The position numbers and the translations under genes were made by a program. A stretch of 64,000 nucleotides of DNA, from assembly GCA_021604705.1 (NCBI GenBank), contig BQJM01000004.1, forward strand, positions 502 through 64,501, in the 5' to 3' direction. Origin of the DNA: a marine bacterium B5-7 (GTDB taxonomy: Bacteria; Pseudomonadota; Gammaproteobacteria; BQJM01). This document shows, one piece after another, positions 46,325 through 51,391 of the stretch (positions within the stretch are counted from its first letter, which is position 1; every line of letters begins with the position of its first letter). The notes under the pieces are model-generated. The model saw only the letters and a list, made by a program, of their open reading frames with translations, was not told the origin of the DNA and searched no databases.

Positions 46325-47284
46325 GTGGCACATTTACGTCGATTTCGTGGTCGTGATGTTCATGGCATTTTACTACTAGATAAGCCGCTCGGTTTGTCAT
46401 CTAATGAAGCGTTACAAGAAGCAAAGCGGATTGTAAATGCGCGTAAAGCAGGGCATACCGGATCTTTAGATCCACTTGCTACAGGTATGTTGCCGATTTG
46501 TTTTGGTGAGGCGACCAAGTTTTCACAGTTTTTACTGGATGCAGATAAGTGTTATTACACGGAAATGCAACTGGGTATAAAAACCACCACGGGTGATGCC
46601 GAAGGTGAAACTGTCGAGCAAAAATCCTTTGAAGGGATTGATAAAGCCAAGTTGCAACAAGTGATGGAAAAATTTCGTGGTCACAGCAAGCAAGTGCCAT
46701 CGATGTATTCCGCCTTAAAATATGAAGGTCAGCCGCTGTATAAGTTAGCGCGCGAAGGTATTGAGGTAGAGCGTGAGCCGCGTGATATTCATGTTTATGA
46801 AATTGAATTATTGGATTTTGATGCGGCATCAGGTATTGCGGCGGTGCGCATACACTGTAGCAAGGGTACCTATATTCGTACGCTGACCGAAGATATCGGT
46901 GAGCAGTTAGGCTGCGGCGCACATGTTGCGGCATTACGACGTGAGTCTGTCGGTCCCTTTGAGATGGATGATATGATTAGTTTGGAAACCTTGGCAGAAG
47001 CCAAGGATTTCAACATGACCGGCGCTGATGGCTATTTAAAGCCTATCCAAACCTGCATTGATGCTTACCCCAAGATTAAACTGACGGCAGAAAATACCCA
47101 GGCATTACAATTTGGGCAGGTCGTTCAGTTAGATAGAGTCATTGAACCCGGCATGATTCAATTATATGCCCCTGATGACACTTTTATTGGCATTGGTGAG
47201 GTTTCAGAAGACAATGAGCTGACCTCAAAACGGCTGGTCTCGGAGCGCCACGTGAAGCGCAGTATTTCGGACGAGAACTATTAA
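46325..47284 (+). CDS. truB: tRNA pseudouridine-55 synthase TruB
   Basis: 319 aa with a GTG start. GILLLDKPLGLSSNEALQEAKRI...GHTGSLDPLATGMLPICFGEATK catalytic-Asp motif. Confidence 0.94.
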   Translation: MAHLRRFRGRDVHGILLLDKPLGLSSNEALQEAKRIVNARKAGHTGSLDPLATGMLPICFGEATKFSQFLLDADKCYYTEMQLGIKTTTGDAEGETVEQKSFEGIDKAKLQQVMEKFRGHSKQVPSMYSALKYEGQPLYKLAREGIEVEREPRDIHVYEIELLDFDAASGIAAVRIHCSKGTYIRTLTEDIGEQLGCGAHVAALRRESVGPFEMDDMISLETLAEAKDFNMTGADGYLKPIQTCIDAYPKIKLTAENTQALQFGQVVQLDRVIEPGMIQLYAPDDTFIGIGEVSEDNELTSKRLVSERHVKRSISDENY

Positions 47285-47289
47285 TGTTG

Positions 47290-47320
47290 GCAAATTATGC
47301 GTATAATCCGCCACTTAACT
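47290..47320 (+). promoter_or_regulatory. Candidate rpsO promoter (perfect TATAAT -10)
   Basis: tgcgTATAATc about 35 nt upstream of the rpsO RBS AAGGAG. The -35 is weak or ambiguous. Confidence 0.35.
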
Positions 47321-47356
47321 AAGATGATATAAATTTACCCACTAAGGAGTGTTAAC

Positions 47357-47611
47357 ATGACAACAACCGTTGCACTAGATGACTTCCGTCAATCTGCAAA
47401 CGACACAGGTTCACCTGAATATCAGGTGGCAATTTTTACCAAGAGAATCACCCACTTAACCACCCATCTTAAGGCAAACCCTAAAGATGCGCATACGCGT
47501 CGTGGCTTAACCCGTTTGGTGAGCAAGCGCCGTAAATCGTTGGATTATCTCAAAGGTAAAAACTTCGATCGCTACCAGAAATTAATTAAAGCACTAGGCA
47601 TCCGCCGTTAA
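47357..47611 (+). CDS. rpsO: 30S ribosomal protein S15
   Basis: 84 aa. [24 protein letters not shown]...[18 protein letters not shown] matches S15. Confidence 0.95.
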
Positions 47612-47619
47612 GGAATATT

Positions 47620-49716
47620 ATGTTTAAGCAAGTTACGAAAACGTTTCAATTTGGGGCACATGAAGTCAGCATAGAGACGGGTTATATTGCTCGTCAGGCG
47701 ACTGCGTCCGTGATGGTGAATATGGCTGATACAATGGTATTGGTTACCGTTGTGGGTAAAGACGATGCTGATCCAATGCGTCCATTCTTCCCGTTAACTG
47801 TTAACTACCAAGAGCGTCAATATGCGGCTGGTAGTATTCCTGGCGGTTATTTGAAACGTGAAGGTCGTCCATCTGAGCGTGAAACATTAACATCACGTTT
47901 AATTGATAGACCGATTCGTCCCTTGTTCCCTGATGGCTTTAAAAATACAGTGCAAGTTGTTGCTACGGTTATGTCTCTAAACCCAGAAGTGGGTGGTGAC
48001 ATTCCTGCAATGATTGGTGCGTCTGCTGCGTTGGCATTATCAGGCATTCCATTTGGCGGCCCGATTGGTGCGGCGAAAGTGGGTTGTATTGGTAATCAAT
48101 TAGTACTTAACCCAACGCCTGAGCAACTCGAACAATCTGATTTAGAAATGACAGTTGCTGGTACAGACAAAGCGGTATTAATGGTGGAATCACAAGCAAA
48201 AGAATTGCCTGAATCTACTATGCGTCAAGCAGTGATGTTTGCCCACAAAGAAATGCAGGTCATTATCAAGGCCGTTAACGAATTAGTTGCGGAAGCGGGT
48301 AAACCTCGTTGGGATTGGACAGCACCGGCATTAGATACAGACCTTTGGGGTAAGTTAACAGGCTTGGCGGAAGCACCGTTGGTCGATGCTTACAAAACCA
48401 AAGACAAAGTTGCTCGTCAAGTTAAAATTGCTGAGATTCAAGATACGGTGATGCAAGCACTTTGCCCCGAAGATCAAGAAGCCGCATATACTGATAAAGA
48501 TGTTGTACCTTTATTTAAAAAGCTGGAAAAACAAATTGTTCGTAGCAGTGTCTTACGTGGCGAACCACGTATTGACGGTCGCGACACAAAAACCGTGCGT
48601 CCTATTCATGTGAAAGTGGGTGCTTTACCACGTGCACATGGCTCAGCCGTATTCACTCGTGGTGAAACACAAGCAATTGTGACGACCACCTTGGGTTCTG
48701 GTCGTGATGCGCAAATCGTTGATTTGCCTGAAACGGAAACCAAAGATCAATTCATGTTGCATTACAACTTCCCTCCTTATTGTGTGGGTGAGACTGGCAT
48801 GATGGGTTCTCCAAAACGTCGTGAAATCGGTCATGGTCGTTTGGCACGTCGCGCGTTAGAAGCCGTATTGCCTAGCCAAGAAGATTTCCCTTATGTATTA
48901 CGATTGGTGTCTGAAATTACTGAGTCAAATGGCTCAAGCTCCATGGCTTCTGTCTGTGGTTCAAGCTTGGCGATGATGGACGCAGGTGTGAAATTGAAAG
49001 CACCGGTTGCGGGTATCGCGATGGGCTTGATTAAAGACGGCGATAAGTACGCAGTCTTGACAGATATCTTGGGTGATGAAGATCACTTAGGTGATATGGA
49101 CTTTAAAGTAGCGGGTACCGAGCAAGGTATTACGGCTTTACAAATGGATATCAAAATCGATGGTATCACTGAAGAAATTATGGATATCGCATTGGCGCAA
49201 GCGCACGATGCACGTAAACATATTTTAGGTGTGATGAACGAAGTGATTAGTGCGCCACGTGAAGAAATGTCTGATTTTGCACCGCGTATTCATACTTTCA
49301 AAATCAACCCAGAAAAAATCCGTGACGTGATTGGTAAAGGTGGTGCGGTAATTCGTTCCATCACAGAAGAAACTGGCGTGACTATCGACATCGACGATGA
49401 TGGTACGATTAAAATTGCGGCAGTGGATGGTGAAGCAGCGAAAGCAGCAATCCAGCGCATTGATGACATCACAGCAGATTTAGAAATTGGTAAAGTCTAC
49501 GAAGGTAAAGTGGTTAAAATCACAGACTTCGGCGCATTTGTTAGCGTGTTAGCTGACAAGCAAGGGCTGGTTCACATTTCTCAAATCAAAGAAGAGCGTA
49601 TCGAGAATGTTAGCGACCACGTTTCTGAAGGCCAAGAAGTTAAAGTGAAAGTGGTTGAAATCGATCGTCAAGGTCGTGTCCGCTTGAGCATGAAAGAAGT
49701 TGAGCAAGACGCTTAA
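47620..49716 (+). CDS. pnp: Polyribonucleotide nucleotidyltransferase (PNPase)
   Basis: 698 aa. Two RNase PH domains, KH, S1. Begins only 8 nt after the rpsO stop. Confidence 0.97.
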
Positions 49717-49733
49717 CAACTAGTGTAATGAAA

Positions 49734-49760
49734 AATGGGGCTAACGCCCCATTTTTTTTG
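49734..49760 (+). terminator. Rho-independent terminator of the nusA-pnp operon
   Basis: aaaaatggggc-taac-gccccattttttttt: a perfect 7-bp GC stem with a T9 run. Confidence 0.8.
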
Positions 49761-49836
49761 GAAGCAAGTGAATACACTAGCAAATATGTAGTAGGATATA
49801 CTACACTTGACCTCTCTATATACGGATGTGAATGTG

Positions 49837-50250
49837 ATGACGGATACAGACAGCAAAAAGTTGGATTTTACTGCTTTTCCTAAAGCATTAGTCAGTTTGG
49901 AACGGGCGGCTGTACGTGCACAAGCAGCAAGGAACGACGAAGAGCTACGGGATGCCGTTATTCTGCGTTTCGAATAAAGCTATGAACTCTCCTGGAAAAT
50001 GCTAAAACGCCAGTTAGAACTTGAGTCACCTAACCCAACAGCAGTGGATGCATTTTCATTCAAGCAACTTATCCGAGAGGGGGCTGAAAAGCAGCTACTT
50101 TCCTCACCAGCGCAATGGTTTGTGTATCGAGAGCAGCGCAATATCACCTCACATACCTATGATGCAAAAAAAGCGGAATCAGTGTTCCTAACAGCCTTAC
50201 AATTTTTGCCGGATGCACAACAATTATTGTCTGCATTAACTAAGCGTTAA
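49837..50250 (+). pseudogene. HEPN-domain protein, HI0074 (nucleotidyltransferase substrate-binding) family, interrupted by an in-frame TAA
   Basis: The frame MTDTDSKKLDFTAFPKALVSLERAAVRAQAARNDEELRDAVILRFE*SYELSWKMLKRQLE... is a single reading frame. The TAA at 49975-49977 replaces the conserved aromatic of the RFE-[FY]-[ST]-[FY]-EL-[AS]-WK family motif (TAT/TAC to TAA). Confidence 0.6.
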
Positions 50251-50253
50251 CAT

Positions 50254-50565
50254 ATGATTACGCTTGAGCCACACTCTCTTTTGCTTGTTCAATCGATACT
50301 TGAGCAATACATTCCTACGAAGAAGGTTCTATTATTTGGGTCTCGCGCAAATAATACGGCTAAGCCATACTCTGATATCGATTTAGCGGTATTGAGCGAT
50401 GTACCGCTGCCTGTGGAGACGCTGGCACAGCTGAGGCTCGCGTTCGAAGAATCTGACTTACCTTATAAAGTTGATCTCGTCGAATGGTGTACACTGACAG
50501 AGGCCTTTCAGCAAATTATTAAATCCGCCCCAGTAGAGGTTGTTCACCCTGAAAATCTCAGCTAA
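50254..50565 (+). CDS. Minimal nucleotidyltransferase (MNT), cognate partner of the HI0074 HEPN protein
   Basis: 103 aa. LLFGSRANNTAKPYSDIDLAVL = GSx10DxD pol-beta nucleotidyltransferase motif. A 3-nt gap separates it from the HEPN gene. Confidence 0.8.
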   Translation: MITLEPHSLLLVQSILEQYIPTKKVLLFGSRANNTAKPYSDIDLAVLSDVPLPVETLAQLRLAFEESDLPYKVDLVEWCTLTEAFQQIIKSAPVEVVHPENLS

Positions 50566-51391
50566 ACCCGTATTTATGGGCAACTAACAACGCTGCGGTC
50601 TTCACCCAAATTGCCTGATTTGCTGGAGAATCCAGCGCGGGATGGGTCTTTGCAAAGGCTTGCCAGGTTTGTTTCGGGTGCGCATGCCAATAGGTTTTTC
50701 CGGCATTAACAGCAAGCATGAACTTTTCAGCAAGCCTTTTATCCAGCGGTTTATGCATGATGATAACCAATGCGGGGTAGGGTTTTACACCGTAATCTTC
50801 TGGGTAAAACAAGCGTGTCTTAATCCCTTTTAATTTTAGCTCAAGCGGTTCAACATTTCGAAAGACATCAGATGACGCATCGACGCCTCGTGTTAGCAAA
50901 GCTTGCGCAATATTGTAATGTACTTGAATGAGTTGCACATCTTGCAGCGTCAACCCAACGTGTGCCAGCATGGTTTGTAAATGTTGGCTAGGCTTGCTGC
51001 CAGAGATGGCGATGCGCTTTCCCTTTAAATCCTGCAGTTTTTTAACAGGGCTGTCTGCTAATACCATCACAGTACTTAATGGGGTATCAATTAAATTGCC
51101 AATGACCTGAATCGGTAAATGCTGCTTTCGCGCGAGTCTCACACTATGTTGATAACTTATCCCAATATCAAACTGCCCAGCTGCAACGAGCTTTAAAGGA
51201 TCCGTCGGATCCGCGGGTGCCGTGAGGTTTACGGCTAAGCCTTCACGCTGAAAAAAACCTTGCTGCTGTGCAACAAAAAGAGCGGCATGGTTAGGATTAG
51301 CCGCCCAGTCTAGTAATACATTAATTTTCTGCAGCGGTGCAGCTACTGCGAGTTGGTAGCAACAGAGAAAGAGGTACAGCCATTTTTTCAT
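50558..51391 (-). CDS. ABC transporter periplasmic substrate-binding protein (NMT1/THI5/SsuA-like)
   Basis: 277 aa. Signal peptide MKKWLYLFLCCYQLAVAAP, then an SsuA/TauA/ThiY-like fold (INVLLDWAANPNHAALFVAQQQGFFQREGL). Confidence 0.8.
   Translation of the reverse strand: MKKWLYLFLCCYQLAVAAPLQKINVLLDWAANPNHAALFVAQQQGFFQREGLAVNLTAPADPTDPLKLVAAGQFDIGISYQHSVRLARKQHLPIQVIGNLIDTPLSTVMVLADSPVKKLQDLKGKRIAISGSKPSQHLQTMLAHVGLTLQDVQLIQVHYNIAQALLTRGVDASSDVFRNVEPLELKLKGIKTRLFYPEDYGVKPYPALVIIMHKPLDKRLAEKFMLAVNAGKTYWHAHPKQTWQAFAKTHPALDSPANQAIWVKTAALLVAHKYGFS

What the first reader, a model, noticed from the sequence alone, without database searches (positions are those of the whole stretch)
49837..50565. 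HI0074-type HEPN/MNT pair with the HEPN partner knocked out by a single TAT-to-TAA nonsense codon
The HEPN (nucleotidyltransferase substrate-binding) gene is intact except for one in-frame TAA at 49975-49977. It falls exactly where the family has a conserved Tyr/Phe (RFE-Y-S-YELSWK). The MNT gene 3 nt downstream is intact. This is either recent inactivation of one component with retention of its partner, or stop-codon readthrough. A palindrome, tgtagtaggatatactaca, at about 49787-49805 upstream is a plausible autoregulatory operator.
Basis: partly seen in the sequence, partly recalled or inferred. Interest (0 to 1): 0.55.

Follow-up and report, generated by a model that had tools for sequence, protein, structure and literature searches.

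The report
Toxin gene broken, antitoxin kept
A small two-gene toxin-antitoxin module next to the pnp gene has had its toxin (HEPN) gene cut short by one stop codon, while a 98%-identical strain still has the intact gene; this is ordinary, recent gene decay.

Summary
ATG 49837 to TAA 50250 is one 137-codon frame broken only by TAA at 49975-49977. With Tyr restored it is a full-length HI0074-family HEPN protein (PF08780 3e-34; TIGR01987 88.7 bits) carrying RX4HXY. Three nt downstream lies an intact 103-aa MNT nucleotidyltransferase with GSX10DXD.

The stop replaces a Tyr/Phe that is conserved in 41 of 42 related loci. An 876-bp public contig (L046) is 98.3% identical and in the same pnp context. 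It has TAC (Tyr) there, and its HEPN differs by only one further, synonymous base. A second assembly (Logan, run DRR328265) reproduces the TAA exactly.

So this is a recent, strain-specific nonsense mutation in the toxin of a type VII-like HEPN/MNT module. The change is C-to-A against the nearest allele, not TAT-to-TAA. Nothing supports readthrough. The upstream palindrome is real but weak (11 of 300 shuffles match it) and has no counterpart in homologous loci.

Three extras:
- Both alleles carry Leu at a near-invariant Gln, which aligns with a Mg2+ ligand of the Legionella HEPN RNase.
- A second MNT/HepT module 5.3 kb away has also lost its toxin's catalytic part.
- Among 33 related pairs, HEPN is disrupted in 4 and MNT in 0.

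Ordinary toxin-antitoxin decay; low interest.

The parts
49731..49759 (+). Intrinsic terminator of pnp (stem AAAAATGGGGC / GCCCCATTTTT, then a T run). It separates the pnp operon from the module.
   Evidence: Inverted repeat I2. RNA fold -17.2 kcal/mol, z = -4.1. pnp ORF 47620-49716.
49787..49805 (.). Perfect 7-nt inverted repeat with a 5-nt spacer, 32-50 nt upstream of the HEPN start. It overlaps a -10-like TATACT (49797-49802). Function unproven.
   Evidence: I6. 11 of 300 shuffles reach 7-nt arms, and homologous loci have no conserved counterpart. Identical in L046. The scan found no sigma-70 promoter on the + strand.
49837..49974 (+). HEPN (HI0074 family) 5' fragment, codons 1-46: helix 1 and the first third of helix 2. 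It ends with E46.
   Evidence: Helix boundaries come from the AlphaFold model of the intact allele.
49963..49965 (+). Codon 43, CTG (Leu), at a near-invariant Gln position. It aligns with Mg2+ ligand Q44 of L. pneumophila HEPN.
   Evidence: Gln in 39 of 41 loci and 37 of 40 proteins. Alignment to 8XDJ. Q44A lowers RNase activity and toxicity (PMC11586414). The intact allele P0122 also has Leu.
49975..49977 (+). Premature stop TAA at codon 47. The closest allele has TAC (Tyr).
49978..50250 (+). HEPN 3' remainder, in frame (codons 48-137 plus TAA). It contains an 83-aa ORF from ATG 49999 (Met55), which GenBank annotates as hypothetical protein GJM06618.1.
   Evidence: (P0014).
50137..50160 (+). 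RX4HXY motif (RNITSHTY: R101, H106, Y108). Y108 is the predicted AMP acceptor.
   Evidence: Sequence. Motif definition in PMC7641770 and PMC11586414. Conservation.
50254..50565 (+). Intact MNT (minimal nucleotidyltransferase) gene of 103 aa. It has no Shine-Dalgarno sequence of its own, so it is probably translationally coupled to HEPN.
   Evidence: PF18765 2e-13 and PF01909 5.6e-13. PDB HI0073 1.8e-21. The coupling is inferred from the 3-nt spacer.
50338..50382 (+). GSX10DXD catalytic motif of MNT (GSRANNTAKPYSDID).
   Evidence: Sequence. Motif shown to be essential in PMC7641770 and PMC11586414.

Best explanation
This is a two-gene HEPN/MNT toxin-antitoxin module of the HI0073/HI0074 subfamily (class I, type VII-like), sitting just after the pnp terminator. 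In intact relatives, HEPN is a small helical RNase toxin. MNT uses its GSX10DXD site to add AMP to the Tyr of the toxin's RX4HXY motif and so neutralises it.

In this strain a single C-to-A change turned Tyr codon 47 (TAC) into TAA, in the middle of helix 2 and directly after the conserved Glu46. The toxin is therefore made as a 46-residue stub. At most, an 83-residue C-terminal piece is also made; it would lack helix 1, most of helix 2 and the Gln/Glu site. Neither piece can form the helical bundle, so the toxin is dead.

The antitoxin gene is still intact because the event is recent and because losing the toxin first is the only harmless order of decay.

Shown: family, motifs, position of the stop, existence of an intact near-identical allele. 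Inferred: RNase toxicity, AMPylation, loss of function, translational coupling.
For: - Family and fold. The AlphaFold model of the intact allele has pLDDT 88.8, and its Foldseek top hit is 1JOG (HI0074) at TM 0.82/0.88, followed by the Legionella HEPN toxin 8XDJ/8XEH.
- Motifs RX4HXY and GSX10DXD are both present. PF08780/PF01909 pairs with these motifs are class I HEPN/MNT pairs in PMC7641770.
- The stop lies at a Tyr/Phe conserved in 41 of 42 loci.
- Intact allele P0122/L046: same context, 15 differences in 876 nt, TAC at the site, and one further synonymous difference within HEPN.
- The Logan assembly has the identical TAA.
- All 16 invariant positions of alignment A1 are kept.
- The same direction of decay is seen elsewhere. 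HEPN is disrupted in 4 of 33 complete pairs (L023 nonsense, L039 and L043 frameshifts, L036 23-aa deletion) and MNT in 0 of 33.
- The second module at 55539-56203 has lost the HepT catalytic part but keeps its MNT.
Against: - No reads were available. The Logan contig probably comes from the same run, so a within-population polymorphism cannot be excluded.
- Toxicity and AMPylation have never been tested for this protein. The closest characterised systems are distant (Legionella HEPN about 23% identical).
- The 4-versus-0 asymmetry is not significant on its own (about 0.1 after allowing for gene length), and some frameshifts in low-coverage metagenome contigs may be errors.
- Leu43, shared with the intact allele, suggests the toxin may already have been weakened. 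In that case the stop inactivated little.
Confidence: 0.8

Rival explanations
1. The TAA is not fixed. It is a sequencing or consensus artefact, or a minor allele in the population from which the MAG was binned, and the organism's gene is really intact (TAC).
For: The source is a metagenome-assembled genome (GJM06617/18, 'marine bacterium B5-7'). An intact TAC allele exists in another assembly. The only confirming assembly is identical over 4.5 kb and so probably uses the same reads.
Against: Two different assemblers give TAA. The intact protein P0122 is on record only from the NCBI contig, not from the Logan assembly of DRR328265. A substitution in a long contig (81.8 kb) is an unlikely consensus error. 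The TAC contig differs at 14 other positions, so it is another strain and not the same population.
Confidence: 0.1
2. The stop does not abolish function. Either it is read through, or translation restarts at Met55 (ATG 49999, 21 nt downstream). The resulting 83-aa fragment, alone or with the 46-aa stub, would act as a HEPN protein or keep MNT translation coupled.
For: The 83-aa ORF keeps RX4HXY and starts at a Met that is invariant in alignment A1. MNT lacks its own Shine-Dalgarno sequence and sits 3 nt after the HEPN stop, so restarting would preserve coupling (sequence).
Against: - None of 42 related loci has a stop at this codon.
- TAA ends pnp, HEPN and MNT normally.
- There is no SD-like sequence at proper spacing before ATG 49999 (GGA only 2 nt from the ATG).
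- The stop and Met55 both lie inside helix 2.
- A restart skips residues 47-54, which include nearly invariant Y47, Y49, E50, L51, W53 and K54.
- The restart fragment also lacks the positions aligned with the Mg2+ ligands Q44/E47 of Legionella HEPN.
Confidence: 0.05
3. After toxin loss, selection keeps the orphan MNT as protection against related HEPN toxins brought in by mobile elements or phages. It is not simply awaiting decay.
For: Two modules in the same 6 kb each keep an MNT with an intact GSX10DXD beside a dead toxin. The family shows 0 of 33 MNT disruptions. Six of ten MNT differences from L046 are synonymous, a rough dN/dS near 0.2. MNT matches candidate defence models PDC-S09 in PADLOC.
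Against: The nonsense mutation is too recent for any decay of MNT to be expected. The counts are small. The premature stop may itself lower MNT expression through lost coupling or polarity. No other HEPN gene was found in the window.
Confidence: 0.15

Closest known systems
HI0073/HI0074 of Haemophilus influenzae (PDB 1NO5 / 1JOG), the founding pair of TIGR01987 and PF08780
   Same: Best PDB sequence matches for both proteins (HEPN 1.6e-20, MNT 1.8e-21). Best structural match, TM 0.82/0.88. Same small two-gene module, and the RNITSHTY motif is identical.
   Different: HI0074 has Phe where this family branch has Tyr47. The window gene carries a stop there and Leu instead of Gln at codon 43. No toxicity or AMPylation data for HI0073/74 turned up in the papers searched.
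Legionella pneumophila HEPN-MNT type VII toxin-antitoxin (PDB 8XDJ, 8XEH, 8YUF; PMC11586414)
   Same: Closest relative with biochemistry (HEPN 2.3e-06, MNT 2.5e-04; TM 0.72-0.85). The short MNT with GSX10DXD poly-AMPylates the Tyr of RX4HXY. The RNase site is built from a Gln and a Glu of helix 2, which align with codons 43 and 46 here.
   Different: Only about 23% identical. Here the Gln is Leu, and the protein stops right after the Glu.
Shewanella oneidensis HepT/MntA (SO_3165/SO_3166), the type VII prototype (PMC7641770)
   Same: Same motif logic, RX4HXY plus GSX10DXD. That paper groups PF08780/PF01909 pairs with PF01934/PF01909 pairs as class I.
   Different: A different HEPN family (PF01934; here only 19.8 bits, below its cutoff). 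The MntA equivalog model scores 47.2 against a cutoff of 60. In this subfamily HEPN usually comes first: of the loci where both genes were found, only L011 has MNT upstream. Fold similarity is weaker (TM 0.53-0.62).
Degenerate toxin-antitoxin loci with an inactivated toxin and a surviving antitoxin (general knowledge, not a curated family)
   Same: One disabling lesion in the toxin and an intact antitoxin. The same pattern recurs in related loci and in the neighbouring module.
   Different: Nothing distinctive. Here the intact ancestor allele is directly observable in a sister strain.

Membership tests
HI0074-family HEPN (TIGR01987 / Pfam PF08780 NTase_sub_bind) | Full-length profile match above the curated cutoff | tested here: met
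   With Tyr put at codon 47: PF08780 118.2 bits (cutoff 31.8), profile positions 2-125 of 126. TIGR01987 88.7 bits (cutoff 55.8).
HI0074-family HEPN (TIGR01987 / Pfam PF08780 NTase_sub_bind) | Helical-bundle fold of HI0074 | tested here: met
   AlphaFold model of the intact allele P0122 has pLDDT 88.8. Foldseek top hit 1jog at TM 0.82/0.88, rmsd 1.6.
HI0074-family HEPN (TIGR01987 / Pfam PF08780 NTase_sub_bind) | Uninterrupted reading frame encoding the whole domain | tested here: not met
   TAA at codon 47. It is a pseudogene of the family.
Class I HEPN/MNT (type VII) toxin-antitoxin pair, as defined in PMC7641770 | RX4HXY in the HEPN and GSX10DXD in an adjacent MNT | tested here: met
   RNITSHTY at 50137-50160 and GSRANNTAKPYSDID at 50338-50382. 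The genes are 3 nt apart.
Class I HEPN/MNT (type VII) toxin-antitoxin pair, as defined in PMC7641770 | HEPN is a growth-arresting RNase; MNT AMPylates the motif Tyr and neutralises it | not testable with these tools
   Needs expression of the reconstructed TAC gene with and without MNT. Shown only for distant relatives.
Class I HEPN/MNT (type VII) toxin-antitoxin pair, as defined in PMC7641770 | Match to the NCBIfam MntA antitoxin equivalog (NF047752) | tested here: not met
   47.2 bits against a cutoff of 60. The MNT belongs to the HI0073 branch, not the MntA branch.
Legionella-type Mg2+-dependent HEPN RNase (PMC11586414) | Gln and Glu of helix 2 that bind Mg2+ (Q44, E47) | tested here: not met
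   E46 is present but the Gln position is Leu43, in both the window and the intact allele. Gln occurs in 39 of 41 loci.
Programmed stop-codon readthrough or recoding | The in-frame stop is conserved among relatives, or the codon is reassigned in the genome | tested here: not met
   0 of 42 related loci have a stop at this codon. The nearest allele has TAC. TAA ends pnp, HEPN and MNT. No Rfam element in 47000-57000.
Autoregulated TA operon with a palindromic operator | A palindrome overlapping the promoter, conserved among homologues, and a DNA-binding domain in one partner | tested here: inconclusive
   A palindrome is present, but 11 of 300 shuffles equal it and 23 homologous upstream regions have none conserved. 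The scan found no promoter on the + strand. Pfam finds no DNA-binding domain.

The most novel reading that the evidence does not exclude
This lineage is repeatedly shedding HEPN toxins while keeping their MNT nucleotidyltransferases under selection. Two neighbouring modules, disabled by different lesions, each retain an MNT with an intact catalytic motif. The orphan MNTs would then serve as standing immunity against incoming HEPN toxins, or would have taken on another AMPylation target. The Q43L change followed by the nonsense mutation would record stepwise disarming of the toxin.
Probability: 0.12. Interest if true: 0.45.

Novelty: new member of a known kind. Interest (0 to 1): 0.2.

Why it matters
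Mostly as a curation point. GenBank lists the two halves as separate hypothetical proteins (GJM06617.1, GJM06618.1). They are one HI0074-family pseudogene.

Biologically it gives a clean, dated snapshot of how a type VII toxin-antitoxin module decays. The toxin goes first, the ancestral allele is still visible in a sister strain, and a second module nearby has gone the same way. The Leu at the Gln position that binds Mg2+ in the Legionella enzyme offers a cheap test of whether that alternative active site applies across the HI0074 family.

Tried and rejected
- Scans of genome contigs and metagenome contigs with the reconstructed protein found 14 and 27 loci. None came from the same species; the best was 62-63% identical. 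The source MAG is not among the species representatives.
- The sister allele came only from the 90% cluster listing.
- Clusters of pnp, the NMT1-like neighbour and MNT hold no other members, so no further strains could be found.
- A literature search for DHS20C, DRR328265 and 'marine bacterium B5-7' found nothing.
- A mechanical census of in-frame stops in the window was too noisy to show whether pseudogenes are common.
- The promoter/terminator scan found no + strand promoter. It also missed the obvious pnp terminator, which was confirmed by folding instead.
- The palindrome comparison across 23 homologous upstream regions showed no shared operator.
- Pfam (E up to 10) and PDB searches could not classify the 125-aa ORF at 55826-56203. 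A database search then linked its first 43 residues to a HepT protein.
- Rfam found nothing in 47000-57000.
- I first read the catalytic R-to-H change in the closest homologue (L001) as another toxin knock-out, then dropped that reading. In the Legionella enzyme, R98A does not reduce activity.

Full report
**Observation.** The window reads ATG at 49837 and TAA at 50248-50250 in one frame of 137 codons. The frame holds a single internal stop, TAA at 49975-49977, which is codon 47. After a 3-nt spacer, a 103-codon ORF runs from 50254 to 50565. The palindrome TGTAGTA-ggata-TACTACA lies at 49787-49805.

**Family.**
- With Tyr placed at codon 47, the upstream protein matches Pfam PF08780 (NTase_sub_bind) over the whole profile at 3e-34. 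It also matches NCBIfam TIGR01987 (HI0074 family) at 88.7 bits against a cutoff of 55.8.
- Its best solved relatives are HI0074 (1JOG, 1.6e-20), TTHA0048, and the Legionella pneumophila HEPN toxin (8XDJ, 2.3e-06).
- The downstream protein is a minimal nucleotidyltransferase (PF18765, PF01909). It is closest to HI0073 (1NO5, 1.8e-21) and more distantly related to the Legionella MNT.
- It scores below the cutoff of the MntA equivalog model (47.2 against 60), so it belongs to the HI0073 branch rather than the MntA branch.
- The HEPN carries RNITSHTY (RX4HXY) and the MNT carries GSRANNTAKPYSDID (GSX10DXD). Yao et al. (PMC7641770) use exactly these two motifs to define class I HEPN/MNT pairs, and they explicitly include PF08780/PF01909 pairs.

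**Position of the stop.**
- The codon is Tyr in all 28 full-length proteins of alignment A1.
- In 42 related genomic loci it is Tyr in 30 (TAC 16, TAT 14), Phe in 11 and Leu in 1. None has a stop.
- An AlphaFold model of the intact allele (pLDDT 88.8) places helices at residues 23-40, 45-73, 85-94, 101-111 and 120-146, in numbering that is +10 relative to the ATG at 49837.
- The stop therefore lies in the middle of helix 2, as does the next in-frame Met (Met55, ATG 49999).
- The model superposes on HI0074 at TM 0.82/0.88 and on the Legionella HEPN at 0.72-0.85.

**Is the base call real, and how old is the lesion?**
- The protein search identified the 83-aa C-terminal ORF as GenBank GJM06618.1 of the MAG 'marine bacterium B5-7', an unclassified gammaproteobacterium.
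- A Logan assembly of run DRR328265 is an exact substring of window 49080-53565, TAA included. A second assembler thus gives the same base, though probably from the same reads.
- The 90% cluster of these fragments also holds P0122, a 147-aa uninterrupted protein. It is identical to the window translation except for Tyr at the stop.
- The contig encoding P0122, L046 (GCA_041166445.1, JBFPED010591420.1, 876 bp), aligns without gaps to window 49629-50504. It covers the pnp 3' end, the terminator, the palindrome, HEPN and most of MNT.
- It differs at 15 positions (98.3% identity). The codon is TAC, and the only other HEPN difference is a synonymous CGA/AGA at 50128.
- The nonsense mutation is therefore specific to this strain and recent, and relative to the nearest allele it is C-to-A.
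- No further strains were found: the genome and metagenome scans returned nothing above 63% identity, and the clusters of the neighbouring genes have no other members.

**Mechanism (inferred from relatives).**
- In Shewanella HepT/MntA and in the Legionella pair, MNT uses GSX10DXD and Mg2+/ATP to add several AMPs to the Tyr of RX4HXY. This blocks the RNase toxin.
- In the Legionella enzyme the RNase site is not RX4H. It is a Mg2+ site formed by Q44 and E47 of helix 2; Q44A and E47A reduce activity and rescue growth, whereas R98A and H103A do not.
- In the alignment, Q44 and E47 correspond to codons 43 and 46 here. The window protein ends exactly after E46.
- Any restart at Met55 would lack helix 1, two thirds of helix 2, both ligand positions and the nearly invariant residues 47-54.
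- I therefore regard the toxin as non-functional. Readthrough has no support: relatives have no conserved stop, TAA ends pnp, HEPN and MNT, and Rfam finds no element.

- Codon 43 is Leu in both the window and the intact allele. It is Gln in 39 of 41 loci and 37 of 40 proteins.
- If the Legionella active site holds for this family, the toxin may already have been weakened before the stop arose. This rests on a 23%-identical relative and is only a lead.

**Direction of decay.**
- Of 33 related loci with both genes complete, HEPN is disrupted in four: L023 by a nonsense codon just before the motif Arg, L039 and L043 by frameshifts, and L036 by a 23-residue deletion. MNT is disrupted in none.
- Allowing for gene length, four of four falling in HEPN has a probability of about 0.1. 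It is suggestive only, and some lesions could be assembly errors.

**A second module in the window.**
- At 55539-55829 lies a second MNT (PF01909, GSX10DXD intact). It overlaps a 125-aa ORF (55826-56203) that has no Pfam match.
- The first 43 residues of this ORF are nearly identical to P0127, a 117-aa PF01934 HepT-like protein on a syntenic contig, L047.
- The DNA is 96.3% and 95.0% identical to L047 on either side. Window 55959-56300, however, is unrelated to the 309 nt that encode the rest of HepT in L047, and no RX4-6H motif remains in any frame.
- Both HEPN/MNT modules in this 6-kb stretch thus have a dead toxin and an intact MNT.

**Palindrome.**
- Seven-nt arms occur in 11 of 300 shuffles of the 100-nt upstream region.
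- 23 homologous upstream regions show no comparable palindrome at a consistent position.
- The scan found no + strand promoter. By eye, a -10-like TATACT overlaps the right arm.
- Neither protein has a DNA-binding domain.
- The two type VII papers searched for these terms (PMC7641770, PMC11586414) describe no transcriptional autoregulation.
- The operator idea is not excluded, but it is unsupported.

**Context.** The module follows the nusA-infB-rbfA-truB-pnp block and a strong pnp terminator (-17.2 kcal/mol). It converges on an NMT1-like binding-protein gene. G+C content matches the flanks. The closest homologous pair (74% identical, L001) sits in a different place, upstream of thrS, as expected for a mobile two-gene module.

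**Verdict.** This is a real but ordinary feature: a recently pseudogenised toxin in a known toxin-antitoxin family. Confidence is 0.8 that it is a genuine strain-specific nonsense mutation. The main residual doubt (0.1) is polymorphism or error in the MAG, which read mapping would settle. Interest is 0.2.

Noticed in passing
window 55539-56300: A second HEPN/MNT-type module. The MNT is intact (55539-55829, GSX10DXD present). It is followed by a 125-aa ORF (55826-56203) whose first 43 residues match a HepT-like PF01934 protein (P0127). In the window, a 342-nt segment (55959-56300) unrelated to the 95-96%-identical contig L047 replaces the rest, so the catalytic part of the toxin is gone.
   Followed up: yes
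window 49963-49965: Codon 43 of the HEPN gene is Leu where the family almost always has Gln. That Gln aligns with Mg2+ ligand Q44 of the Legionella HEPN RNase. The intact sister allele also has Leu, so the toxin may have been attenuated before the stop arose. P0003 and P0004 also have Leu.
   Followed up: partly
window 50254-50504 versus L046: Differences from the sister strain are unevenly spread: 10 in 251 nt of MNT, nine of them within 50358-50437, against 2 in 414 nt of HEPN (Fisher p = 7e-4). This suggests a recombination tract or a strain-mixed assembly in L046.
   Followed up: partly
L001 3250-3275 (protein P0001): The closest full-length homologue (74% identical) has His instead of the motif Arg (HNITSHTY), the only such case among 39 loci. 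It may or may not matter, since R98A has little effect in the Legionella enzyme.
   Followed up: no
L013 4001-4390: A HEPN homologue on a contig whose record title is 'MAG: Francisella tularensis subsp. holarctica' has Asp in place of the AMP-acceptor Tyr (RAATSHLD) and no MNT gene downstream. It is a possible orphan HEPN that no longer needs AMPylation control.
   Followed up: no
window 52202-53356: A DUF4172 + Fic domain protein (a possible AMPylating enzyme) lies 1.6 kb downstream of the module. It sits between two ORFs without Pfam matches.
   Followed up: no
window 49807-50250 (GenBank GJM06617.1 and GJM06618.1): The public annotation lists the two halves of the HEPN pseudogene as separate hypothetical proteins of 56 and 83 aa. 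The 56-aa call starts at TTG 49807, whereas homologues point to ATG 49837.
   Followed up: yes
L047 1-67 versus window 56572-56638: The first 67 nt of contig L047 repeat a segment that also occurs further along the same contig, within the stretch (L047 898-3309) that aligns to window 56301-58697. This may be an assembly artefact or a short duplication next to the second module.
   Followed up: no
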